Source: a virus (lineage: Duplodnaviria; Caudoviricetes). Taken from it: a DNA stretch of 59,648 bases. The translations under genes and the position numbers were made by a program. The DNA lies in the IMG/VR virus record IMGVR_UViG_3300017761_004576, positions 1-59,648 of that record; one strand, 5' to 3'. Below, one piece after another: positions 2,502 through 59,648 of the stretch (within the stretch, counting starts at the first letter, position 1; each line of letters opens with the position of its first letter). The notes below the pieces were generated by a model, which was not told the origin of the DNA, did not search any database, and was given only the letters and a program-made list of their open reading frames with translations.

Positions 2502-3929
2502 ATGATAAAAGATTACGGAATTGAGTTCCAAAAAATATTTTTACAAATGATGTTGGAAGATGCACAGAGTTATGTTCGTGTGCAAAATATTTACAACCCA
2601 CAAAACTTTGACAAAAATCTACGCTCAGCTGCCGAACTTATAAAATCCTACTCTGACAAATACACCACGCTACCCACCAGGACACAGATTCTAGCCGAAA
2701 CTGGCATCAACATTGATTCTATACCCGAGGAATTAAAAGGGGAAAATCATCAGGCTTGGTTTTTGGAAGAGTTTGAAGCGTTTACCAGACGTCAAGAACT
2801 TGAACGTGCTATCTTAAAGGCAGCAGACTTGCTGGAAAAAGGTGAGTTTGATCCTGTGGAAAAGTTAATCAAGGATGCTGTGCAGATCAGTTTGACCAGG
2901 GACATGGGCACAGACTACTTTGCTGATCCCAGTGCTCGTATCAACAAGTACTTTAATTCGGGCGGACAAGTGTCAACCGGGTGGCCACAAATGGACAGGC
3001 TATTGTATGGTGGGTTCAGCAGAGGTGAACTAAACATCTTTGCTGGTGGGTCGGGATCAGGTAAGTCATTGGTAATGATGAACATCGCACTGAACTGGTT
3101 ACAACAGGGCTTGAGTGGTGTTTATATCACACTAGAACTCTCAGAGGAACTCACAAGTTTACGAACAGATGCCATGTTGACCAACATGAGCACCAAGGAC
3201 ATTCGCAAGGACATAGACACAACAGAACTCAAGGTCAAGCTGGTGGCAAAAAAATCCGGCAACTATCAAGTCAAAGGCTTGCCTGCACAAAGCAACATCA
3301 ACGACATACGGGCATACCTGAAAGAATATCAAATACAAACAGGCAAGCGTGTGGACTTTGTGATGATCGACTACTTGGACCTGCTGATGCCTGTGAGTGC
3401 AAAAGTTTCGCCCAATGACTTGTTTGTGAAGGACAAGTATGTGAGTGAAGAACTGCGCAACTTGGCCAAGGAGCTGGGATTCTTGATGGTAACTGCATCA
3501 CAGTTGAATCGGTCAGCTGTGGAAGAAATTGAATTTGATCACAGTCACATTTCAGGTGGTATATCTAAAATCAACACAGCAGACAATGTGTTTGGTATCT
3601 TTACTTCACGTGCTATGAAAGAGCGTGGCAAGTATCAGATACAGTGTATGAAGTCTCGAAGCTCAACCGGCGTTGGTCAAAAAATTGATCTGGAGTACAA
3701 CATTGAAACCATGCGCATTACTGACGAAGGCGGAGAAGATGGAGACACATATTCAAAGAAACCATCTGCTTCAATCATGGACTCAATCAAAGCCCGCAGC
3801 CAAGTTAGCTCGGCTGGTGATGACTCAAACAGCACTCCATGGGACAGTGCGGAACCAGTTGCAAAAGCCACAGCAGACGTTCAAAGTGCCAAACTAAAAC
3901 AACTGCTAGGAAAAATTAAACAGTCATGA
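2502..3929 (+). CDS. Replicative DnaB-like helicase (T4 gp41-like)
   Basis: Walker A GGSGSGKS, IDYLDL, ASQLNR motifs. Confidence 0.93.
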   Translation: MIKDYGIEFQKIFLQMMLEDAQSYVRVQNIYNPQNFDKNLRSAAELIKSYSDKYTTLPTRTQILAETGINIDSIPEELKGENHQAWFLEEFEAFTRRQELERAILKAADLLEKGEFDPVEKLIKDAVQISLTRDMGTDYFADPSARINKYFNSGGQVSTGWPQMDRLLYGGFSRGELNIFAGGSGSGKSLVMMNIALNWLQQGLSGVYITLELSEELTSLRTDAMLTNMSTKDIRKDIDTTELKVKLVAKKSGNYQVKGLPAQSNINDIRAYLKEYQIQTGKRVDFVMIDYLDLLMPVSAKVSPNDLFVKDKYVSEELRNLAKELGFLMVTASQLNRSAVEEIEFDHSHISGGISKINTADNVFGIFTSRAMKERGKYQIQCMKSRSSTGVGQKIDLEYNIETMRITDEGGEDGDTYSKKPSASIMDSIKARSQVSSAGDDSNSTPWDSAEPVAKATADVQSAKLKQLLGKIKQS

Positions 3930-16670: not shown

Positions 16671-18992
16671 ATGAAAAGCATTACAGTTGTAAAACGTAGT
16701 GGGCGTCGTGACCCATTGCAAATTGAAAAATGGCAAGCACAAGTGGCCAAGGTGTGTGCCGGAATAGCTGACGTAAGTCAGAGCATGATAGAAATCAAAG
16801 CACAGTTGCATTTTTATGATGGTATTACCACCAAAGAAATTGATGGTATTACCCTACGTGCCATTGTGGACTTGATTGACGTGGAATCTAACCCTGACGT
16901 GGGGCATACCAACTATCAGTTTGTGGCAGGCAAACAGCGACTCAGCATGCTACGCAAAGATGTGTACGGCTCATACGATCCCCCACATTTGTATGAAATT
17001 GTAAAAACCAATGTGGCCACTGGCCTGTACACTCCTGAACTGCTGGAATGGTACACAGAAGATGACTGGAACCGCATGAACGACATGATCGATCATGCCA
17101 AAGATGAATCATACAGTTATGCCGCAGTGGAACAGCTGATTGAAAAATATCTAGTAAAAAATCGATCAACAGGAAAAACATATGAAACCCCTCAAGTCAG
17201 ATACATGGTGGCAGCTGCCACTGTATTCCATAAGGAAGAACCTAACAGTGCCCGCATGCGCTATATTAAAGAGTATTACACAGCAGCCAGTGATGGCCTG
17301 TTTACTCTTGCTACTCCTGTGCTTGCTGGTCTTGGGACTCCTACTAAACAGTTTAGTAGTTGCGTACTTATCCGCAGTGACGATGATCTGGACAGTATAT
17401 TTGCTTCAGGTGAAATGATGGCCAAGTATGCCAGCAAGCGAGCAGGCATTGGTTTGGAGATAGGACGACTACGTCCGCTAGGCAGTCCCATCCGTGGTGG
17501 TGAGATCATGCACACAGGTATGATACCATTCCTAAAAAAATGGTTTGGAGATTTGCGCTCATGCTCACAGGGAGGTATCCGTAATGCAAGTGCTACTGTA
17601 TTTTATCCTATTTGGCATCTTCAGTTTGATGATCTTATTGTACTTAAGAACAACCAAGGAACAGAAGAAACCCGAGTCCGTCATATGGATTATGGGGTTG
17701 TGCTTAGTGCTTTCTTCTGGAGACGATTTAAAAACCGAGAAAACATAAGTTTTTTTGACCCCAACGAAGTTCCTGATTTGTATGAAGCGTTCTACACAAA
17801 CACTGCACTGTTTGAAGAACTGTATGTCAAATACGAAAAGCAGGGTGGACTTCGAAAGAAAGTAATGGCTGCGGAAGAAGTGTTCAAGGGTGGCATATTA
17901 AAAGAGAGAACAGATACAGGACGTATCTATCTAGTGTTCATTGACAACGTGCAGAATCAAGGCCCATTTGACCCTAAGTACCATACCATCTACCAGAGTA
18001 ATCTTTGCTGTGAAATACTTTTACCTACTAAGTCCTTTAAACGTCTGGATGACAGCAATGGTCGTATCGCACTTTGCACTCTGGGCTCAATCAATTGGGG
18101 TGCGTTCCGCAATCCAGAAGACATGCGCCGTGCTTGCCGTATACTGCATCGTAGCCTCAACAACATTCTTGACTATCAAGACTTTCTTTCCATCCAGTCT
18201 AAACTCAGCAATGAGGAAATTAGACCGCTGGGAATCGGTATCACCAATCTCGCCTACTGGCATGCCAAGCGAAGTCTCAAGTACGGTGAGAAGGAAGCTC
18301 TAGGCGAAGTCAAGTCTTGGATGGAACATCAGGCCTACTACCTGACCGAAGCGTCAGTTGAGCTGGCTCGAGAACGTGGCCGGTGCGAAGGTAGTGATTG
18401 CACACGTTACGGCCAAGGTGTGTTTCCTTGGGAACTACGAGCCAAGGGGGTGAACGAACTCACAGACTTCACTCCTGATTCAGGGCTAGACTGGAACACC
18501 TTGCGTGGCAACATGCGAGCATATGGTGTACGCAACGCCACCTTGATGGCTGTGGCGCCTGTGGAAAGTTCAAGTGTTGTGATCAACTCAACCAACGGCA
18601 TTGAAATGCCCATGAGCCTGATTTCAGTCAAAGAAAGCAAAGCAGGTAGTTTGACACAGGTGGTGCCCGAATATCACAGACTCAAAAACAAGTACCAAAT
18701 GATGTGGGCGCAAAAAGATTGTGTGGGCTATTTGAAAACCGCCGCTGTGTTGGCAGCATACATCGATCAGTCAATCAGCACCAACACATTCTATAATCCT
18801 GCACACTTTGCAGATCGTAAAGTACCTACCACGTTGATTGCTCGAAATCTTATGCAAGCACATCACTGGGGCATCAAGACATTCTACTACAGCTTGATCA
18901 ACAAGCAAGGCTCTCGTGCAGACAAGGAAGCTGCTCCATTAGAAGCAATTGATTTTGATGATGTGGAAGATTGCGAAAGCTGTAAACTTTAA
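16671..18992 (+). CDS. nrdA: Ribonucleotide reductase class Ia alpha subunit
   Basis: ATP cone, QFSSCVL, SNLCCEI, TFYY, C-terminal CESCKL. Confidence 0.97.
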   Translation: MKSITVVKRSGRRDPLQIEKWQAQVAKVCAGIADVSQSMIEIKAQLHFYDGITTKEIDGITLRAIVDLIDVESNPDVGHTNYQFVAGKQRLSMLRKDVYGSYDPPHLYEIVKTNVATGLYTPELLEWYTEDDWNRMNDMIDHAKDESYSYAAVEQLIEKYLVKNRSTGKTYETPQVRYMVAAATVFHKEEPNSARMRYIKEYYTAASDGLFTLATPVLAGLGTPTKQFSSCVLIRSDDDLDSIFASGEMMAKYASKRAGIGLEIGRLRPLGSPIRGGEIMHTGMIPFLKKWFGDLRSCSQGGIRNASATVFYPIWHLQFDDLIVLKNNQGTEETRVRHMDYGVVLSAFFWRRFKNRENISFFDPNEVPDLYEAFYTNTALFEELYVKYEKQGGLRKKVMAAEEVFKGGILKERTDTGRIYLVFIDNVQNQGPFDPKYHTIYQSNLCCEILLPTKSFKRLDDSNGRIALCTLGSINWGAFRNPEDMRRACRILHRSLNNILDYQDFLSIQSKLSNEEIRPLGIGITNLAYWHAKRSLKYGEKEALGEVKSWMEHQAYYLTEASVELARERGRCEGSDCTRYGQGVFPWELRAKGVNELTDFTPDSGLDWNTLRGNMRAYGVRNATLMAVAPVESSSVVINSTNGIEMPMSLISVKESKAGSLTQVVPEYHRLKNKYQMMWAQKDCVGYLKTAAVLAAYIDQSISTNTFYNPAHFADRKVPTTLIARNLMQAHHWGIKTFYYSLINKQGSRADKEAAPLEAIDFDDVEDCESCKL

Positions 18993-26155: not shown

Positions 26156-27532
26156 ATGAATGACATTGACTTTGCCCACAAACAATTCAACGGTATCACT
26201 GTGGCAGCTGATTGGATAAGAGACCTTGAAAGTTCTGACAGTCGCTTGCACAAAGAACGAGTGATTGAAAAAGCCTTGATGGCTTCAAAACTGGGCAGTG
26301 CCAATGCACAGTGTTTTTTGTTCAACTGCTATCAGGCCTACAATCCTTATTATACATTCCATGTGAAACAGGTGCCTGAAAGTTCTGGCATTGAACATGC
26401 CGAAAACCCTTGGCCTGTGTTCTGGGGATTGCTGGAAGGCCTACGCACACGATCGTTCACCGGCCATCGTGCTAGAGATGCCATCTTAGAAACAATGAAA
26501 CGCTTTGATTCCTTAGAATGGAACAATCTTTGTAGGCGTGTTATTACCAAAGACCTGCGCTGTGGTATTTCAGAAAAGACCTTGAACAAGGTGCTGGGCC
26601 GGACCGCCTGGCGGATTCCTGTGTTCAGTTGCCAACTGGCACAAGACTCCACAGACCAACCCAAGAAGTTAAAGGGCATCAAACGCCTGGAATGTAAACT
26701 GGATGGTGTGCGTGTGTTGGCAGTGGTACAAGGTACCAGCGTTACATTGTACAGCCGCAATGGCAAAGAGTTTGAAAACTTTCCGCAGATTGTGCAAGCC
26801 ATAGAAGACAACAGCAAGGCATTTTTTGCTACTCACTACTATGGTGGCCGTTTTGTACTGGACGGTGAGATTGTGGGAGAAAGTTTTCAGAAGTTAATGA
26901 AACAAGCACACCGCAAATCGGATGCTGTCACAGACGGCATGGTGTATCACGTGTTTGATATCATACCGCTGGATAGTTTTATCGAAGGCCACTACAACGC
27001 ACAACAACACAAACGCATTGAAATGTTGGAACGTGTACGTGCCAAATTGCCCGACAATGGGCCTATACAGATCATGAACGGCCTGGAAGTGGACCTTGAC
27101 ACAGCCGAAGGGCATGACATCATGCAACGCTATGCCGAAGCCGCTGTAGAGGGTGGATTCGAAGGCATCATGATCAAGAGCATGGATGCTCCGTACCTGT
27201 GCAAACGCACAGATTCCTGGATGAAATGGAAACCCACAATCACAGTTGATTTGAAAATTGTGGGTTTTGAACAAGGGACTGGTAAGAATGAAAACCGGTT
27301 GGGTGCTATAATTTGTGAAGGAGAAGACAATGACCGTAGAATTCATGTTAATGTTGGCAGTGGGTTTAGTGATGCTGTTCGTGATGAGTATTGGGCCAAT
27401 AGGGATCAGTTACTTGGTCACTTGGTTGAAGTCCAAGCGGACGCAGTTACTCAAAACCAAGACGGATCGTACAGTCTGAGGTTTCCAAGATTTTTACGTT
27501 TTAGAGATTTCGAAGCAGGCAATAAAATTTAA
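26156..27532 (+). CDS. lig: ATP-dependent DNA ligase
   Basis: KLDGVR, LDGE, FDI, EGIMIK, WMKWK, SLRFPRF. Confidence 0.95.
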   Translation: MNDIDFAHKQFNGITVAADWIRDLESSDSRLHKERVIEKALMASKLGSANAQCFLFNCYQAYNPYYTFHVKQVPESSGIEHAENPWPVFWGLLEGLRTRSFTGHRARDAILETMKRFDSLEWNNLCRRVITKDLRCGISEKTLNKVLGRTAWRIPVFSCQLAQDSTDQPKKLKGIKRLECKLDGVRVLAVVQGTSVTLYSRNGKEFENFPQIVQAIEDNSKAFFATHYYGGRFVLDGEIVGESFQKLMKQAHRKSDAVTDGMVYHVFDIIPLDSFIEGHYNAQQHKRIEMLERVRAKLPDNGPIQIMNGLEVDLDTAEGHDIMQRYAEAAVEGGFEGIMIKSMDAPYLCKRTDSWMKWKPTITVDLKIVGFEQGTGKNENRLGAIICEGEDNDRRIHVNVGSGFSDAVRDEYWANRDQLLGHLVEVQADAVTQNQDGSYSLRFPRFLRFRDFEAGNKI

Positions 27533-38055: not shown

Positions 38056-38376
38056 CTAATTTTGCAATGTGTCTTGCCTAGAAGCCTGCAGTTCTCGACG
38101 CAAGGTGTTGTAATCTTCCAGCGTGGCAATGGAAGGCACAGTGGATTTCATGTAGGCCGGCGGTGTAGCCTGCCATTCAGATTCACTCACACCAGCCACA
38201 ATCATGGCATGGTATTCGTGTCCGTCACTGGTGTGCAGTTGCACTCGTTCAAACCCTTGTGGAGTTTTGGCCGCGTTCATACATGCCTGTGCCAGTGCTC
38301 TAAGAGCCGCTGGGTCTGCTATGATATGTAAATCTTGTCGGGGTTCGCTGTGAGGGTATATGTGTAGTCTAGCCAT
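38056..38376 (-). CDS. Hypothetical protein coupled to dnaE-like gene
   Basis: TAATG overlap with polymerase stop. Confidence 0.65.
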   Translation of the reverse strand: MARLHIYPHSEPRQDLHIIADPAALRALAQACMNAAKTPQGFERVQLHTSDGHEYHAMIVAGVSESEWQATPPAYMKSTVPSIATLEDYNTLRRELQASRQDTLQN

Positions 38377-40052
38377 TATGTTATGTGCTCAATGTCCTGT
38401 AATTTCATGCGTTTGCTTTTGTACACTTTAACACATTCTGAACTGTTTGCATAGTCCAAACGGCCCTTGCCCCACAAGATTGGTTGATCGCTGAAGGACA
38501 TGGCATGTGGCACTATCACATCTAGATAACGGCCGTTGCCAGTGCCCAGAGTGGCAAAGGTTATGTAGTCTTTGGCGCCACTTTTGAACACACGATAATT
38601 GGCCACCAGACCCAAAAACTCCACTTCTCCAGGTCGTCTTATTTCAGTGCAGGCCGGAATAAAATTACTGCTGCTCCAACGACCAGTTCTGGCCAGTTCA
38701 GCACACTCACCACCTTGGCTGGGCGAAGGCACAGCCCCGGCCAGTTTGGCTTCTTGATAATACACCCAACTGCTGTAACTGCCTTGGCAGTGTTTCAAAC
38801 AGGCTCGCCAGAAAGCCTCAGGATTGTGTGCCTTTTGATAGGCCAAGGCCCAGATCAATCGACCCAGATTGGTGGCATGAGCTCGACACAGGCCAAAGTG
38901 ACTGAGTTCACGTAGCGACGCCAACACACGATCACGTTTGGGGTGATCACCAATCAACTGCATAAACTCATAGATCTTGTCTTCATTGCGTTTGGCAAAT
39001 GCTCTGCGCCACATGTCAGCAGTGTACATGTCACAGTCCAGGATGTCAGCAATCATGGTAATAGCATCATCCTCAAACACCACTGTGTCTTGCTGTATGG
39101 TATCTGCTGACCAGTCTTGAAACGCCGATGCTTTGCGGCGACCTTGTGTGGCCACTGGACGGATCAAGGCCGTGGCCAAGGTACAGTCGCTCCGACTCTT
39201 GACTTTGAGTGCTCTGAACAGTCGCTTCATGGCAGGTGATTCGCCTTGGGTCACACCCAACACATCACCACGACCCAGCAGATCACTGGTCTTTTCATCC
39301 AGTTCAGGATAGTCTGTGAGTGGACGTTGGTCTATTTCCCACAACTGGCTCAGTCCACGATTGGCCAAGATATCTATTTTGAAATGTTCAAGATCTTCTG
39401 TTTCGTATTTGTCCAACAAGATTTGATTGTCACCATTGATCAGGCTTTTGGGCACGGCACGATCAAAAATCAAGATACCACCACAGTGTTTGGATATGCA
39501 GCGTTTTTTGCCCATGAGTTTGGCTGTGACTCGTTCGGCTTCTTTTATTTCTTCTGGAGGCAGTACCTGGCTGAATTCAAATCCACGTTTGAGTGTGCCT
39601 TTGGCTCCCAGTCGCTTGGCCGCTTCTCTCTTGGCAGACTTTTCTTTGTACATCACATAGTTTGAGACTCTAGCACTTTGTCCAGGCCAACGACGGAATA
39701 TGCGATTCATCACAGTGGCCTGTTGCCAGTGCGGAAAATCCAAGTCAATGTCGGGCAAGTCGTCACGTTTGGGATTCATAAAACGTGCTATGGGGATATT
39801 TTCCGCCACAGGATCAAGATCGCTGATGCCCATGAGCCAACACACCAAGCTAGATCCTGCTGAGCCTCGGGTGATGTGTGGAATGTCTGTGGTGAGATCC
39901 AGTATTTCTCTCACACGCAGGAAATGTCGGGAAAAGTTTTGATCTCTAATTAGTTCTAGTTCTTCTGCCAGTCTGTCTGCGTATTTGGGATCTTGTGGTA
40001 ATTCTCTTCTAAATTGTTTTACTAGTTGTTCAAGTTCTCGATATCTGTCCAT
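38376..40052 (-). CDS. dnaE: Compact family C DNA polymerase (DnaE-like, no PHP domain)
   Basis: RGSAGSSLV, PDIDLDF, SKHCGG, KIDIL, FGLCRAHA, C-terminal OB-like region; only 558 aa. Confidence 0.85.
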   Translation of the reverse strand: MDRYRELEQLVKQFRRELPQDPKYADRLAEELELIRDQNFSRHFLRVREILDLTTDIPHITRGSAGSSLVCWLMGISDLDPVAENIPIARFMNPKRDDLPDIDLDFPHWQQATVMNRIFRRWPGQSARVSNYVMYKEKSAKREAAKRLGAKGTLKRGFEFSQVLPPEEIKEAERVTAKLMGKKRCISKHCGGILIFDRAVPKSLINGDNQILLDKYETEDLEHFKIDILANRGLSQLWEIDQRPLTDYPELDEKTSDLLGRGDVLGVTQGESPAMKRLFRALKVKSRSDCTLATALIRPVATQGRRKASAFQDWSADTIQQDTVVFEDDAITMIADILDCDMYTADMWRRAFAKRNEDKIYEFMQLIGDHPKRDRVLASLRELSHFGLCRAHATNLGRLIWALAYQKAHNPEAFWRACLKHCQGSYSSWVYYQEAKLAGAVPSPSQGGECAELARTGRWSSSNFIPACTEIRRPGEVEFLGLVANYRVFKSGAKDYITFATLGTGNGRYLDVIVPHAMSFSDQPILWGKGRLDYANSSECVKVYKSKRMKLQDIEHIT

Positions 40053-55036: not shown

Positions 55037-55444
55037 ATGACAGACATAGGACAGTTTCTCATGGCATTTGGCGACTTTTTGATTTGGTTTGGCTTGGCAT
55101 ATTTTGCGATTACCATAACATCTGGTCTGCTGAAGGCCTGGTTGATGTACCGGTTTGAACAGTACATCAGCCAAGAACTCACATCAGTAGGGCAGGCCTT
55201 GGATGAAGAACGGCTGATTGCACTCACAGTAGAAATTGATGACAATCAATATTTCTGTTATAATTCAATCACAAAAGATTTTGTGTGCCAAGGCTCGGAC
55301 TTGACGGAAATACGAAAACGATTTCGTGAGAGATATCCCAACAAGGATGCGGCCATATATGATGGTGACCAAACAGCAGTGGCCACACTGAAATCACAAC
55401 TGCAAGAACTAAAGAAACAAAATGAAAATAGCATTGGCATCTGA
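55037..55444 (+). CDS. Membrane-anchored hypothetical protein
   Basis: N-terminal TM; FVCQG motif. Confidence 0.65.
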   Translation: MTDIGQFLMAFGDFLIWFGLAYFAITITSGLLKAWLMYRFEQYISQELTSVGQALDEERLIALTVEIDDNQYFCYNSITKDFVCQGSDLTEIRKRFRERYPNKDAAIYDGDQTAVATLKSQLQELKKQNENSIGI

Positions 55445-56255
55445 CGTACACCTAGAATTTGGTGACCTGGACTTTGACAATACAGACAACGCTGATGTGT
55501 TGATCCTGGGCGGTGACATATGTGTGGGTTCAGACATGGCCCAGCGTGATCCCTACAACACCATGGGCGAAGAATATCGTAGCAATCGATTCCATGCATT
55601 CTTTGAACGATGCTGTGATCGTTTTCCTCATGTGATTTTCGTTGTGGGCAATCACGAACACTACAATGGTGACTTTGTCAAGACTGTGCCACACATCAAA
55701 GATGTACTGGGTTATTTGACAAATTTGCACATCCTGGAGAAAGAAACTTTTGTGCTGGATGATGTCACGTTCATTGGCGGTACCTTGTGGACTGACATGA
55801 ACCGAAGAGATACCAGGACCTTGCATGCAATTTCTGGTATGATGAATGATTTTCGATGTGTAAGCAACAGTGCCAAACCGGCGGATCAACGCGGATGGAA
55901 CGGCCGTTTTACTACCACAGACGCCGCAGACGATCACGACGCCATGGTAAAATATATCCGCTTGATGATCGAAGGCAAGTGGGATCAGAAGTTTGTGGTA
56001 GTGGGGCATCATGCACCCAGCAGGCTCAGCACACATCCACGCTGGGCCCATGAAGCCATAATGAATGGTGGCTACAGTTCAGAATTGGATGACTTTATTT
56101 TGGACCATCCGCAGATCCGATTGTGGACACATGGTCACACACACGAGGATTTTGACTACTGCATTGGCAGCACTCGAATCCTGTGCAATCCAAGAGGTTA
56201 CATCAACTATGAAGAAAGGGCAGACACATGGCAGCTGAAAACGGTAGAAGTATAA
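55422..56255 (+). CDS. Calcineurin-like metallophosphoesterase
   Basis: SDVH, GGDI, GNHEHY, GHHAP, HGHTH, NPRGY. Confidence 0.9.
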   Translation: MKIALASDVHLEFGDLDFDNTDNADVLILGGDICVGSDMAQRDPYNTMGEEYRSNRFHAFFERCCDRFPHVIFVVGNHEHYNGDFVKTVPHIKDVLGYLTNLHILEKETFVLDDVTFIGGTLWTDMNRRDTRTLHAISGMMNDFRCVSNSAKPADQRGWNGRFTTTDAADDHDAMVKYIRLMIEGKWDQKFVVVGHHAPSRLSTHPRWAHEAIMNGGYSSELDDFILDHPQIRLWTHGHTHEDFDYCIGSTRILCNPRGYINYEERADTWQLKTVEV

Positions 56256-58475: not shown

Positions 58476-58718
58476 ATGTTGATGAAGAAACATCGACCCA
58501 TTGGTACCATACGGCTCGGCGAAAGTTTTAACCACGCCCAAGAAATTGCACGAACTTTTGGCCAAGTTGATCGAGTGATCGAGTGGTGTAAAACCGAACT
58601 CACAGGTGAGTGGCGCTGGCAAGTGGTCGCATCCAGCAGTGACCGTGCCCCAGGACGCTATGTCTTCTACTTTGATTCAGACCGCGATGCCGCTGCCTTT
58701 GCACTGTTCTGGACATAA
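58476..58718 (+). CDS. Small protein, same family
   Basis: YVFYFDSDRDAAAFALFW. Confidence 0.6.
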   Translation: MLMKKHRPIGTIRLGESFNHAQEIARTFGQVDRVIEWCKTELTGEWRWQVVASSSDRAPGRYVFYFDSDRDAAAFALFWT

Positions 58719-58795
58719 AAACCAATACTTTTTGCTGACTTGACTGAATATTGCTGATCTGCTACACTACGGGTATTGTATTGCAAAGGATTGAC

Positions 58796-59032
58796 ATGAA
58801 TGAGTGGGACCGTAACAACCTGCATTTTATCCTGGATTCGGATGAGGCCACGCTGGAGGACTTTTATTCCTGGGCCACAGAAGATGACTTGGCCTATGCC
58901 TTGAGTCTGGTGCGCGAAGCCAAGACAGAATTACTGATACAAGAAGCCGACATTCTGGACGAACTGTTGACTGCGGCCACAGCGGCGGATGTCTCAGACG
59001 CCAACCGCATGTTAAAGCAGTTTCAACTATGA
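58796..59032 (+). CDS. Acidic hypothetical protein
   Basis: AAGGA RBS; promoter-like TTGACT..TACACT upstream. Confidence 0.65.
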   Translation: MNEWDRNNLHFILDSDEATLEDFYSWATEDDLAYALSLVREAKTELLIQEADILDELLTAATAADVSDANRMLKQFQL

Positions 59033-59364
59033 GCCATCAGTTTTTGATTGTGTGGGACAACCTAGGCCTTGAGTGTTGCATAGACATCACTGAGGACGAG
59101 CAACGGCGCATGTGGCAAACACTGCGGGGCGAGCTAGTGAGTGAGACTACAATTCCCAATCTCAATCACATCATGCTACGTGCCAGGCTCAACAGCCACC
59201 GCCACTATGAGATCTACACTTGTGAAGCCACAGATGGTATCACTGCCGAAGATATTCGAGCGATGTTTGAAGTCAGTCCGCAGACCGCGGCTGACACAAT
59301 TCGACGCTTGGGACACTGTTTGCACAGTGACCGAGCTGAAAAGAACCGGGTGTTGATCACCTAA
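59029..59364 (+). CDS. Hypothetical protein
   Basis: WDNLGLE..LRARLNSHRHYEIY. Confidence 0.65.
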   Translation: MSHQFLIVWDNLGLECCIDITEDEQRRMWQTLRGELVSETTIPNLNHIMLRARLNSHRHYEIYTCEATDGITAEDIRAMFEVSPQTAADTIRRLGHCLHSDRAEKNRVLIT

Positions 59365-59371
59365 CTGAACG

Positions 59372-59584
59372 TTCCGGGTGTCTCCGGATACTGTGACCCG
59401 CAGGATGAGAAGTACAATGACATGTACGGGTGGTAGTCTTTGAACCGAAAGGCCGCTGGCAATGCGAGAACGGACCCTGTCGGGAAGCGGGTGGAAGGTG
59501 TGTGTTACAAGGCATTGAACCAAACGGGGAGCCAAAGTAACAACGGTGCGAGCTGACACACTAAATTACCGCCGGGGGTTGCAG
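59372..59584 (+). ncRNA. Candidate ~210-nt structured ncRNA
   Basis: GC-rich intergenic; closing stem CTGTGACCC/GGGTTGCAG, GNRA hairpin, nested stems. Confidence 0.6.
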
Positions 59585-59594
59585 AGCATCATGA

Positions 59595-59623
59595 TTGACC
59601 AATATTTCCCAATTTGTTATACT
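59595..59623 (+). promoter_or_regulatory. Early promoter (family of 24662)
   Basis: TTGACCAATATTTCCCAATTTGTTATACT then AAGGAG at window end. Confidence 0.8.
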
Positions 59624-59648
59624 ACAAACATCTTAACCAAGGAGCCAG

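What the first reader, a model, noticed from the sequence alone, without database searches (positions are those of the whole stretch)
59372..59584. Large structured intergenic RNA candidate
Seen: about 210 nt of GC-rich non-coding sequence in an otherwise gap-free operon. It has long-range closure CTGTGACCC(59391)/GGGTTGCAG(59584), hairpins TCCGG/CCGGA, GTACA/TGTAC and CC-GAAA-GG, and nested GTGT/ACAC, TGTTAC/GTAACA and GGC/GCC pairings. I could not match it by eye to tRNA, tmRNA, RNase P, intron or known riboswitch cores. Inference: possibly a new ncRNA or ribozyme class.
Basis: seen in the sequence. Interest (0 to 1): 0.72.

Follow-up and report, generated by a model that had tools for sequence, protein, structure and literature searches.

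The report
New structured RNA of jumbo phages
The gap holds a gene for a roughly 225-base, intricately folded RNA that many freshwater giant phages carry once per genome, usually inside their tRNA gene clusters, and that matches no described RNA family.

Summary
Window 59367-59593 (+) is one copy of a structured RNA family. Two capped IMG/VR pattern scans gave 181 loci with the element.

**Structure.** Covariation supports eight helices, a pseudoknot and a kissing loop. On 81 sequences 94.8% of cells pair, 33 of 48 pairs change on both sides, and 0 of 500 shuffles reach this. On 49 distinct further sequences the figure is 98.2%.

**Not a known family.** No Rfam 15 family matches. It is absent from 50,697 isolate phage records and from 185,579 prokaryote species genomes.

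**Context.** 168 of 181 loci hold tRNAs, and all 2,507 tRNAs lie on the element's strand. 95 of 170 complete copies start within 20 nt of a tRNA 3' end. There is one copy per genome in 5 of 5 records. In two relatives of the window the tRNA array lies about 100 kb away.

**Expression and coding.** Freshwater metatranscriptome contigs cover the element with no differences. The antisense ORF shows no coding signature.

**Best reading.** A trans-acting stable RNA cut out of longer transcripts. Its target is unknown, possibly tRNA or translation. Ribozyme activity is untested.

The parts
59367..59593 (+). The whole RNA element. The mature RNA is probably about 59367 to 59591.
   Evidence: Covariance model R1 matches here at 206.2 bits, E 1.7e-64, over model positions 1-205. 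It is the only match in the window.
59373..59388 (+). Hairpin Pa (59373-77 with 59384-88). Its loop takes part in the kissing loop PK2.
   Evidence: All 5 pairs change on both sides; 93.8% of cells pair.
59391..59403 (+). Hairpin Pb (59391-94 with 59400-03), with a near-invariant loop GACCC.
   Evidence: 3 of 4 pairs change on both sides; 100% of cells pair. The outer pair is CG 45, GC 35, UA 1.
59396..59431 (+). Pseudoknot PK1: the Pb loop ACCC (59396-99) pairs with GGGU (59428-31).
   Evidence: 100% of cells pair. 2 of 4 pairs show a double change, AU to GC and CG to AU, in 2 of 81 sequences each. Support is moderate: few events.
59379..59422 (+). Kissing loop PK2: the Pa loop UGUC (59379-82) pairs with the Pc loop GACA (59419-22).
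   Evidence: The central pair is GC 24, AU 20, GU 4 with 0 unpaired of 48 in A4, and GC 57, AU 16, GU 2 with 6 unpaired of 81 in A3. This helix was not part of the model used to align A4.
59412..59427 (+). Hairpin Pc (59412-16 with 59423-27).
   Evidence: All 5 pairs change on both sides. One homologue (L076) carries a 178-aa ORF inserted in this hairpin.
59436..59453 (+). Hairpin Pe (59436-41 with 59448-53), with invariant ACC in its loop.
   Evidence: 5 of 6 pairs change on both sides.
59454..59466 (+). Hairpin Pf: a 3-bp stem (59454-56 with 59464-66) and a 7-nt loop UGGCAAU.
   Evidence: The inner pair is CG 63, UA 18. The last loop base covaries with an A at 59470: UA 114, CG 8 of 122.
59473..59580 (+). 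Long arm. It is made of Pg (59473-78 with 59575-80), 2 bp (59481-82 with 59573-74), Pj (59487-90 with 59569-72) and Pi (59497-503 with 59556-62). Between them lie the conserved bulges GU and GGAA and the internal loop GUGGAA/AAAUUA.
   Evidence: Pg: 6 of 6 pairs change on both sides. Pj: the pair 59488-59571 is CG 29, UA 10, AU 7 with 0 unpaired. Pi: 4 of 7 pairs and 6 of 7 pairs change on both sides. RNAalifold finds all of these on its own.
59504..59555 (+). Variable peripheral domain at the tip of the long arm. The window has the long form.
   Evidence: Most homologues carry a shorter hairpin here, which I read as preceded by a k-turn-like tandem G.A motif (my reading of the alignment, not a tool call). 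Only 5 of 81 sequences share the window's form.
59581..59591 (+). Conserved 3' tail GCAGAGCAU.
   Evidence: Nearly invariant in the alignment. In 54 of 170 complete copies a tRNA starts within 20 nt after the element.
59595..59623 (+). Sigma70-like promoter for the next gene. It is not part of the RNA.
   Evidence: TTGACC-17-TATACT, 10 of 12 matches. Relatives L003 and L004 have similar hexamers at this place, by my reading.
59029..59364 (+). Upstream 111-aa ORF with no family assignment. The RNA follows it directly.
   Evidence: ORF list. No Pfam match. Homologues in 6 viral loci, of which 3 have the RNA directly downstream.

Best explanation
The stretch is a gene for a stable, compactly folded, trans-acting non-coding RNA of about 205-227 nt. 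It is a single-copy gene of a group of freshwater jumbo phages.

**How it is made (inferred).** The RNA is transcribed as part of a longer transcript. In most phages that transcript is the polycistronic tRNA-array precursor; in the window's lineage it is the tail of an operon of small genes. The RNA is then cut out by host RNA-processing nucleases. Where tRNAs flank it, RNase P cutting at the next tRNA's 5' end would make its 3' end, and the tRNA 3'-end nucleases would make its 5' end.

**What it does (inferred).** Five hairpins and one long bulged arm are tied together by a pseudoknot and a kissing loop. Variable peripheral helices hold nearly invariant loops and bulges in place: GACCC, the ACC loop, UGGCAAU, the GGAA bulge, GUGGAA/UAUAAUUA and the GCAGAGCAU tail. 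These form a binding or catalytic site for a conserved partner. My guess for that partner is a component of the tRNA or translation apparatus.

**Shown:** the family, the strand, the fold, the tRNA-array context, one copy per genome, and presence in RNA libraries.

**Inferred:** the processing route, action in trans, and the partner.
For: **Family.**
- Two capped IMG/VR pattern scans each stopped at 120 stretches.
- nhmmer finds the element in 181 of 182 loci examined. That set includes the last 10 kb of the window and two contigs counted twice.
- R1 hits all 58 new loci of the second scan; 4 of those copies are cut by contig ends.

**Structure.**
- On A3, 48 pairs give 94.8% of cells paired, 33 pairs with changes on both sides, and 0 of 500 shuffles as high. 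Slid controls pair 37.8-47.0% of cells.
- On A4, 98.2% of cells pair, 24 pairs change on both sides, and 0 of 500 shuffles reach this.
- RNAalifold on its own predicts 39 pairs, 27 of them with compensatory changes.

**Strand.**
- Frequent G-U pairs (for example GU 80 of 81, UG 62 of 81) would be A-C mismatches on the other strand.
- All 2,507 tRNAs in 168 loci lie on the element's strand.

**Processing context.**
- 95 of 170 complete copies begin within 20 nt of a tRNA 3' end.
- 54 of 170 are followed by a tRNA within 20 nt.

**Trans action.**
- R1 finds exactly one copy in each of 5 records, including one that is 100% complete with terminal repeats.
- In two relatives of the window the RNA lies about 93-105 kb from arrays of 28 and 33 tRNAs, yet keeps the same core.

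**Conservation pattern.** Unpaired positions vary less (mean entropy 0.330) than paired ones (0.631).

**Expression.** RNA-library contigs with 0 differences cover 59425-59587 (X18) and 59385-59571 (X20).
Against: - No experiment or raw-read data define the RNA ends. The RNA runs were available only as contigs, and DNA carry-over in RNA libraries cannot be excluded.
- The window has no terminator after the element on the + strand. In this lineage the RNA could therefore stay part of a longer transcript.
- Nearness to tRNAs may reflect only convenient co-transcription. Weinberg et al. make this point for GOLLD and ROOL (PMC5737381, passages read). It does not by itself point to tRNA as the target.
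- No partner protein was found. L7Ae, RtcB, the CCA-adding/PolyA_pol family and TROVE are each absent from 5 of 5 records.
- Both baits were exact words, so the sampled family is biased towards close relatives. The conservation of the core is overstated in each set for the baited part: only 69 of the 120 stretches of the second scan carry the exact 17-mer of the first bait.
- The single-sequence fold is not better than shuffles.
Confidence: 0.55

Rival explanations
1. A decoy or inhibitor RNA. It would bind and neutralise a host tRNA-directed defence nuclease, or another host RNA-binding factor. This is a special case of trans action.
For: The RNA sits in phage tRNA arrays. It is limited to phages: it is absent from 185,579 prokaryote species genomes by a 20-mer scan. 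The loops are invariant while the helices vary. From recall, not from a call here: tRNA arrays in phages have been interpreted as counter-defence against tRNA-cleaving host systems.
Against: I recognised no tRNA-like module: no 7-nt anticodon-type loop with U at position 2 and no GGUUCGAAUCC T-arm (my reading). ARAGORN calls nothing inside the element. No defence or anti-defence gene is linked to it.
Confidence: 0.15
2. A ribozyme: self-cleaving, so as to free itself or the neighbouring tRNA, or acting on tRNA in trans.
For: The features resemble those of catalytic RNAs. There is a compact pseudoknotted core, invariant purine-rich bulges, variable periphery, and tolerance of a 178-aa ORF inserted in a peripheral hairpin, as group I introns show. 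Many copies start 1-2 nt after a tRNA CCA end.
Against: No match to any ribozyme family in Rfam at E up to 10. The ends abut tRNAs, which host RNase P and the 3' nucleases already process, so self-cleavage is not needed. The window lineage keeps the RNA far from any tRNA.
Confidence: 0.1
3. A building block of an RNA-only multimeric assembly, as found for the tRNA-island RNAs ROOL and GOLLD.
For: It shares the genomic niche: phages, near tRNA islands. That niche is described for ROOL and GOLLD in 10.1101/2024.12.08.627333 (passages read). No partner protein was found.
Against: It is much smaller, about 205 nt against 581 nt for ROOL (PMC5737381, passages) and often over 800 nt for GOLLD (10.1101/2024.12.08.627333, passages). 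There is no sequence or model similarity. The palindromic AACGUU in the 5' leader, which could dimerise, is lost in several subgroups.
Confidence: 0.08
4. A cis-acting element of the transcript: a riboswitch, an antiterminator or processivity signal, or an mRNA 3' stabiliser.
For: In the window it lies at the 3' end of an operon and has no terminator of its own. Long untranslated tRNA arrays could need protection from premature termination (my own reasoning).
Against: It is not upstream of any consistent gene, and a promoter separates it from the next gene. Its position within arrays varies: near the array start in L008, near the array end in L122. It is kept when moved about 100 kb from the array.
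Confidence: 0.07
5. The region encodes the antisense 127-aa protein (59176-59559, - strand).
For: The ORF exists. 64 of 122 homologues have a stop-free frame over at least 90% of the element, 62 of them on the - strand.
Against: Variation has no 3-base periodicity (0.515, 0.462, 0.517). Lengths differ by non-multiples of 3 (47, 44 and 31 of 122). Changes are compensatory for + strand pairing, with G-U pairs. In most loci the element is flanked within a few bases by tRNA genes of the + strand.
Confidence: 0.01

Closest known systems
ROOL and GOLLD RNAs (large phage and prophage RNAs often near tRNA islands)
   Same: Phage-encoded, highly structured with pseudoknots, often next to tRNA genes, function unknown (10.1101/2024.12.08.627333, passages; PMC5737381, passages).
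   Different: No Rfam match to either family. About 205-227 nt against 581 nt for ROOL and often over 800 nt for GOLLD. Seen only in uncultivated freshwater viral contigs. Oligomerisation is unknown.
Phage T4 species 1 and species 2 RNAs (rnaC, rnaD)
   Same: Small stable RNAs of unknown function that directly follow a tRNA in a phage tRNA cluster. That cluster also holds a GIY-YIG homing endonuclease gene, segB (T4 record annotation). This is the same kind of niche and, I infer, the same processing route.
   Different: Not homologous: R1 scores at most 2.7 bits anywhere in the T4 tRNA region with filters off. The T4 RNAs are 139 and 119 nt.
Candidate structured RNAs (csRNAs) mined from IMG/VR (PMC10690425)
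   Same: Same data source and the same type of evidence. That study reports 8,495 covarying intergenic motifs in IMG/VR contigs (passages read).
   Different: Those motifs are 29-151 nt, so at most a part of this RNA could be among them.
Bacterial RNase P RNA catalytic domain
   Same: Acts on tRNA precursors and is a pseudoknotted RNA with conserved purine-rich joining strands. This resemblance is of theme only and comes from recall.
   Different: No match to any RNase P family at E up to 10. The helix that would stand for P4 (my Pg) varies freely in sequence, whereas P4 is nearly invariant in RNase P (recalled). No pairing of the 5' and 3' ends.

Membership tests
Any Rfam 15 family (4,227 models, including tRNA, tmRNA, RNase P, SRP, 6S, group I/II introns, riboswitches, self-cleaving ribozymes, GOLLD, ROOL, drum, raiA, HEARO) | Score at or above the family's gathering threshold | tested here: not met
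   0 matches in the window. The best sub-threshold matches in 59300-59648 are Ysr100 at 14.9 bits (cut-off 47) and CRISPR-DR36 at 11 bits (cut-off 38). Of 163 matches in 11 homologous loci, the 150 listed are all tRNA and none overlaps the element; 13 lower-scoring ones were not shown.
tmRNA / permuted tmRNA | tRNA-like acceptor/T-arm domain plus a tag reading frame; an ARAGORN or Rfam call | tested here: not met
   ARAGORN finds no tmRNA in the window. In 123 loci the features nearest the element are all tRNAs. tmRNA_permuted scores 18.8 bits against a cut-off of 47 on L008. That match starts in the neighbouring tRNA 3' end and uses model positions 36-93 only.
T4 species 1/2 RNAs (rnaC/rnaD) | Sequence and structure homology to the T4 genes | tested here: not met
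   R1 with filters off over the T4 tRNA cluster gives a best score of 2.7 bits, E 0.58.
tRNA-island-associated phage structured RNAs (a loose class defined by context: GOLLD, ROOL, T4 species 1/2) | Phage-encoded, structured, located in or beside tRNA gene clusters on the tRNA strand | tested here: met
   168 of 181 loci hold tRNAs; 2,507 of 2,507 tRNAs are on the element's strand; 156 of 181 loci have a tRNA within 300 nt. Covariation.
Self-cleaving or other ribozyme | Catalytic activity | not testable with these tools
   It needs in-vitro transcription and cleavage assays. There is no similarity to known ribozyme families.
Protein-coding gene (antisense 127-aa ORF) | Frame kept across homologues and codon-periodic variation | tested here: not met
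   Lengths mod 3 are 47, 44 and 31 of 122. Entropy by phase is 0.515, 0.462 and 0.517.

The most novel reading that the evidence does not exclude
The RNA is a new class of phage-encoded catalytic or tRNA-binding RNA. Its invariant bulges and loops, held by a double tertiary lock (pseudoknot plus kissing loop), would act directly on tRNAs or the ribosome during takeover of host translation. Examples are processing, protecting or sequestering tRNA 3' ends, or blocking a tRNA-cleaving host defence. That would make it the first functionally defined member of the enigmatic RNAs of tRNA islands.
Probability: 0.2. Interest if true: 0.9.

Novelty: categorically new. Interest (0 to 1): 0.74.

Why it matters
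Large, highly conserved, pseudoknotted RNAs with invariant loops have often turned out to be ribozymes, riboswitches or cores of ribonucleoproteins.

This one has several useful properties:
- It is single-copy, limited to giant freshwater phages, and embedded in their tRNA arrays.
- It is present in metatranscriptome contigs.
- At about 205 nt, with a well-defined covariation-supported fold, it is tractable for structure probing, crystallography or cryo-EM, and for cleavage and binding assays.

It adds a compact new class to the unexplained RNAs that live in phage tRNA islands (GOLLD, ROOL, T4 species 1 and 2). It could help explain why jumbo phages invest so heavily in their own translation-related RNA genes.

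Tried and rejected
**Searches and tests that led nowhere**
- Single-sequence folding gives no signal: z = -0.30 on + and 0.13 on -.
- blastn against 50,697 isolate phage records found nothing for the window copy. A majority-type copy gave only a 19-nt chance match at E 8.
- A 20-mer scan of 185,579 prokaryote species genomes gave 16 stretches. None shares more than 17-36 nt with the element; they are mostly GC-rich actinomycetes.
- Candidate partner proteins were absent from all 5 whole phage records searched: L7Ae (for the k-turn-like motif), RtcB, CCA-adding/PolyA_pol and TROVE/Ro60.
- Flanking proteins are not shared beyond synteny among relatives. The window's neighbours have no Pfam family.

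**Structural ideas I dropped**
- An early model paired GGUA (59432-35) with UACC (59567-70), which would cross Pg. I dropped it because position 59571 covaries with 59488 (CG, UA, AU). That places ACCGCC in helix Pj.
- A 7-bp 'acceptor-like' stem GGGUGGU/ACCGCC is contradicted in the same way.
- Dimerisation through the palindrome AACGUU in the 5' leader is not conserved in several subgroups.

**Resemblances I could not support**
- Local word resemblances to the T-box sequence, 4.5S RNA and 5S rRNA were noticed from memory only. No such Rfam family scores at E up to 10, so I make no claim.
- An antitermination role does not fit, because the position within arrays varies.

**RNA runs**
- Parts of the stretch without contig cover in the RNA runs are not interpreted, and depths are not used to rank expression.

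- Four full-text searches found no description of this RNA.
- The supplements of PMC10690425, which list its csRNAs, could not be seen.

Full report
**What is at the site.** The window is a whole IMG/VR virus record of 59,648 bases that CheckV rates 17% complete. It is therefore a fragment of a jumbo phage. Its large ORFs match ribonucleotide reductase, DNA polymerase, DnaB-like helicase and DNA ligase families. The 111-aa ORF at 59029-59364 (+) ends at a TAA stop. A sigma70-like promoter, TTGACC-17-TATACT, lies at 59595-59623, followed by a Shine-Dalgarno sequence at the window's end. In between lie about 230 non-coding bases at 55.1% GC, against 45.4% for the window. ARAGORN finds no tRNA or tmRNA in the window. 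Rfam 15 gives no match at gathering score and only noise in E-value mode. On its own the sequence folds no better than shuffles: z = -0.30, and 72 of 200 shuffles fold as well. The window alone therefore cannot show structure.

**Homologues.** The upstream protein has relatives in six viral loci, and three of these carry the element right behind the gene. A 17-letter word from the conserved core was scanned against IMG/VR. blastn showed that nearly all are true homologues. That bait fixes part of the core, so I ran a second, independent bait from the 5' half. All 58 are hit by my covariance model R1 at E of 2.8e-22 or better. Only 7 of these 58 carry the exact first bait, so 69 of the 120 stretches of the second scan do. 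The core is thus very conserved but not invariant. In all, nhmmer finds the element in 181 of 182 loci examined. That set includes the window's last 10 kb, and two contigs are present twice. The one locus without it, L110, is a chance word match.

The element was not found in 50,697 isolate phage records. It was also not found in one genome each of 185,579 prokaryote species: 16 word matches, none extending beyond 17-36 nt. The runs that hold the window's stretch are all labelled freshwater or lake metagenomes. Nine runs from nine studies hold half or more of its sampled words.

**Structure.** Positions below are window coordinates. An 81-sequence MAFFT alignment (A3) and a 58-sequence alignment from cmsearch (A4, 49 distinct rows) support the following elements.
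- Hairpin Pa: 59373-77 with 59384-88.
- Hairpin Pb: 59391-94 with 59400-03, loop GACCC.
- Hairpin Pc: 59412-16 with 59423-27.
- Hairpin Pe: 59436-41 with 59448-53.
- Hairpin Pf: 59454-56 with 59464-66, loop UGGCAAU.
- One long arm made of Pg (59473-78 with 59575-80), two further pairs (59481-82 with 59573-74), Pj (59487-90 with 59569-72) and Pi (59497-503 with 59556-62).
- In that arm the 3' strand 59569-80 is paired throughout. The 5' strand carries bulges GU and GGAA, and an internal loop GUGGAA/AAAUUA lies before Pi.
- Two tertiary pairings tie the 5' hairpins together. The Pb loop pairs with GGGU at 59428-31 (PK1). The Pa loop pairs with the Pc loop (PK2).

The counts are as follows.
- On A3, 94.8% of 3,880 cells pair and 33 of 48 pairs change on both sides. 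None of 500 shuffles reaches any measure, and slid controls pair 37.8-47.0%.
- On A4, 98.2% of cells pair, 24 of 48 pairs change on both sides, and 0 of 500 shuffles reach this.
- Pj, PK1 and PK2 were not in the model that aligned A4, so their counts are not fitted to it. The Pj pair at 59488-59571 is CG 29, UA 10, AU 7 with none unpaired. The PK2 central pair is GC 24, AU 20, GU 4 with none unpaired.
- PK1 rests on two double changes, seen in two sequences each, so its support is only moderate.
- RNAalifold, run without my structure, recovers all the nested helices: 39 pairs, 27 with compensatory change.
- Many G-U pairs fix the strand as +.
- Unpaired positions are more conserved than paired ones: entropy 0.330 against 0.631.

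The tip of the long arm is variable. Most members have a short hairpin that I read as preceded by tandem G.A pairs and a 3-nt bulge, which is k-turn-like. This is my reading, and in some members the G.A pairs are replaced by Watson-Crick pairs. The window and four others of the 81 aligned sequences carry a longer branched form.

Three of its hairpins are real. Its long-range closure and its CC-GAAA-GG hairpin are not: both strands of the 'closure' pair elsewhere with strong covariation. Its inference of a new structured RNA survives all three of its own refutation tests. The antisense 127-aa ORF exists, and 62 of 122 homologues have a - strand frame that stays open over at least 90% of the element. 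I put this down to base composition, for three reasons: variation has no codon periodicity, lengths fall in all three classes mod 3, and the substitutions are compensatory for + strand pairing.

**Context.**
- 168 of 181 loci contain tRNA genes, up to 42 in one locus.
- All 2,507 tRNAs lie on the element's strand.
- 95 of 170 complete copies start within 20 nt of a tRNA 3' end, most often tRNA-Tyr (36) or tRNA-Ser (20).
- 54 of 170 are followed within 20 nt by a tRNA.
- 156 of 181 have a tRNA within 300 nt.

In many loci the element begins directly after the encoded CCA. R1 finds exactly one copy in each of five whole records, including a 352,754-base genome with terminal repeats.

The window's lineage is the exception. 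There is no tRNA within 3 kb. In two relatives the arrays of 28 and 33 tRNAs lie about 93-105 kb from the RNA gene. The core is nevertheless kept, which argues that the RNA works in trans and is not merely a spacer or processing signal of the array.

One homologue (L076) carries a 178-aa ORF inserted in Pc. Its N-terminus reads like a GIY-YIG motif, which is my reading only. Pfam gives just a sub-threshold NUMOD3 match at 18.5 bits against a cut-off of 20.4.

**Expression.** Four metatranscriptome runs, held as contigs, were laid on 58600-59648.
- In X18 a 163-nt contig covers 59425-59587 with no differences.
- In X20 a 187-nt contig covers 59385-59571 with no differences.
- In X12 contigs cover 58957-59407 and, from relatives, the core. 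One of these contigs replaces the window's variable domain by the short form.
- X16 covers only 58643-58858.

Contigs cannot give ends, strand or level, and DNA carry-over is possible. This shows presence in RNA libraries of three studies and no more.

**Mechanism.** I commit to a stable trans-acting RNA excised from longer transcripts. Where tRNAs flank it, the tRNA-processing enzymes would trim it; this step is inferred from the 1-5 nt spacers. The variable helices form a scaffold that presents the invariant loops and bulges to a conserved partner. The partner is unknown. I guess the tRNA or translation apparatus, from the genomic niche and from the large investment of these phages in tRNAs. 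The niche alone is weak evidence, as Weinberg et al. note for GOLLD and ROOL (PMC5737381, passages). Rivals, with my odds, are a decoy against tRNA-directed host defences (0.15), a ribozyme (0.10), an RNA-only assembly (0.08), a cis element (0.07) and an antisense protein (0.01).

**Comparison with what is known.**
- The closest things by context are ROOL and GOLLD (passages) and the T4 species 1 and 2 RNAs. The T4 RNAs follow tRNA-Arg in a cluster that also holds the GIY-YIG gene segB.
- None is homologous: there are no Rfam matches, and R1 scores at most 2.7 bits on the T4 cluster.
- A survey of IMG/VR reported 8,495 covarying motifs of 29-151 nt (PMC10690425, passages). Part of this RNA could be among them, but the lists are in supplements that I could not open.
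- Four full-text searches found no description of it.

**Verdict.** This is a real, widespread, single-copy structured RNA of freshwater jumbo phages. It has a well-supported pseudoknotted fold and matches no described family. Its function is open. It is a strong candidate for experimental study.

Noticed in passing
L076:1481-2017 (+), inside the element's Pc hairpin: A 178-aa ORF on the RNA's strand is inserted between the two halves of the RNA gene. Its N-terminus reads like a GIY-YIG homing-endonuclease motif (my reading). Pfam gives only a sub-threshold NUMOD3 match at 18.5 bits against a cut-off of 20.4. T4 likewise has the GIY-YIG gene segB in its tRNA cluster.
   Followed up: partly
A3 columns 75-134; for example L071:3988-4257, L038:7089-7372, L037:854-1110: 6 of 81 aligned sequences carry an extra 50-60 nt between GGGUGGU and hairpin Pe. 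By eye it forms one or two more hairpins, so this looks like a second site that tolerates insertions.
   Followed up: no
L008:1433-1670 and equivalent places: Two further conserved non-tRNA modules follow the RNA in some arrays. One contains AGTCAAGCATCGATA (18 of 182 loci) and the other AGGGTCGTAGCGGTT (19 of 182 loci, always 20 nt after the RNA's end). There is no Rfam match at E up to 1. They may be further small RNAs or odd tRNAs.
   Followed up: partly
window 58740-58768 (+): A second sigma70-like promoter match (TTGACT-17-TACACT, 9 of 12) lies just before the 93-aa ORF at 58751-59032. It could drive the transcript that carries the RNA.
   Followed up: no
A3 columns 205-305 (tip of the long arm): In most members Pi is followed by a 3-nt bulge and tandem G.A/A.G pairs (UGAUG...UGA), which look like a k-turn. 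In other members the same positions form Watson-Crick pairs (GAGG/UUUC). No L7Ae-family protein is encoded in the 5 records searched.
   Followed up: partly
window 55422-56255, 16671-18992, 38376-40052, 2502-3929, 26156-27532: The window is a replication and nucleotide-metabolism module. Matches are to metallophosphoesterase, ribonucleotide reductase large subunit, DNA polymerase, DnaB-like helicase and ATP-dependent DNA ligase. Most of the small ORFs next to the RNA have no family.
   Followed up: partly
L091:7291-7629: A homologue of the window's 111-aa upstream protein lies about 430 nt before the RNA in a divergent member, with two extra small ORFs in between. The protein-RNA neighbourhood is therefore syntenic in part of the family but not fixed (my comparison by eye).
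   Followed up: no
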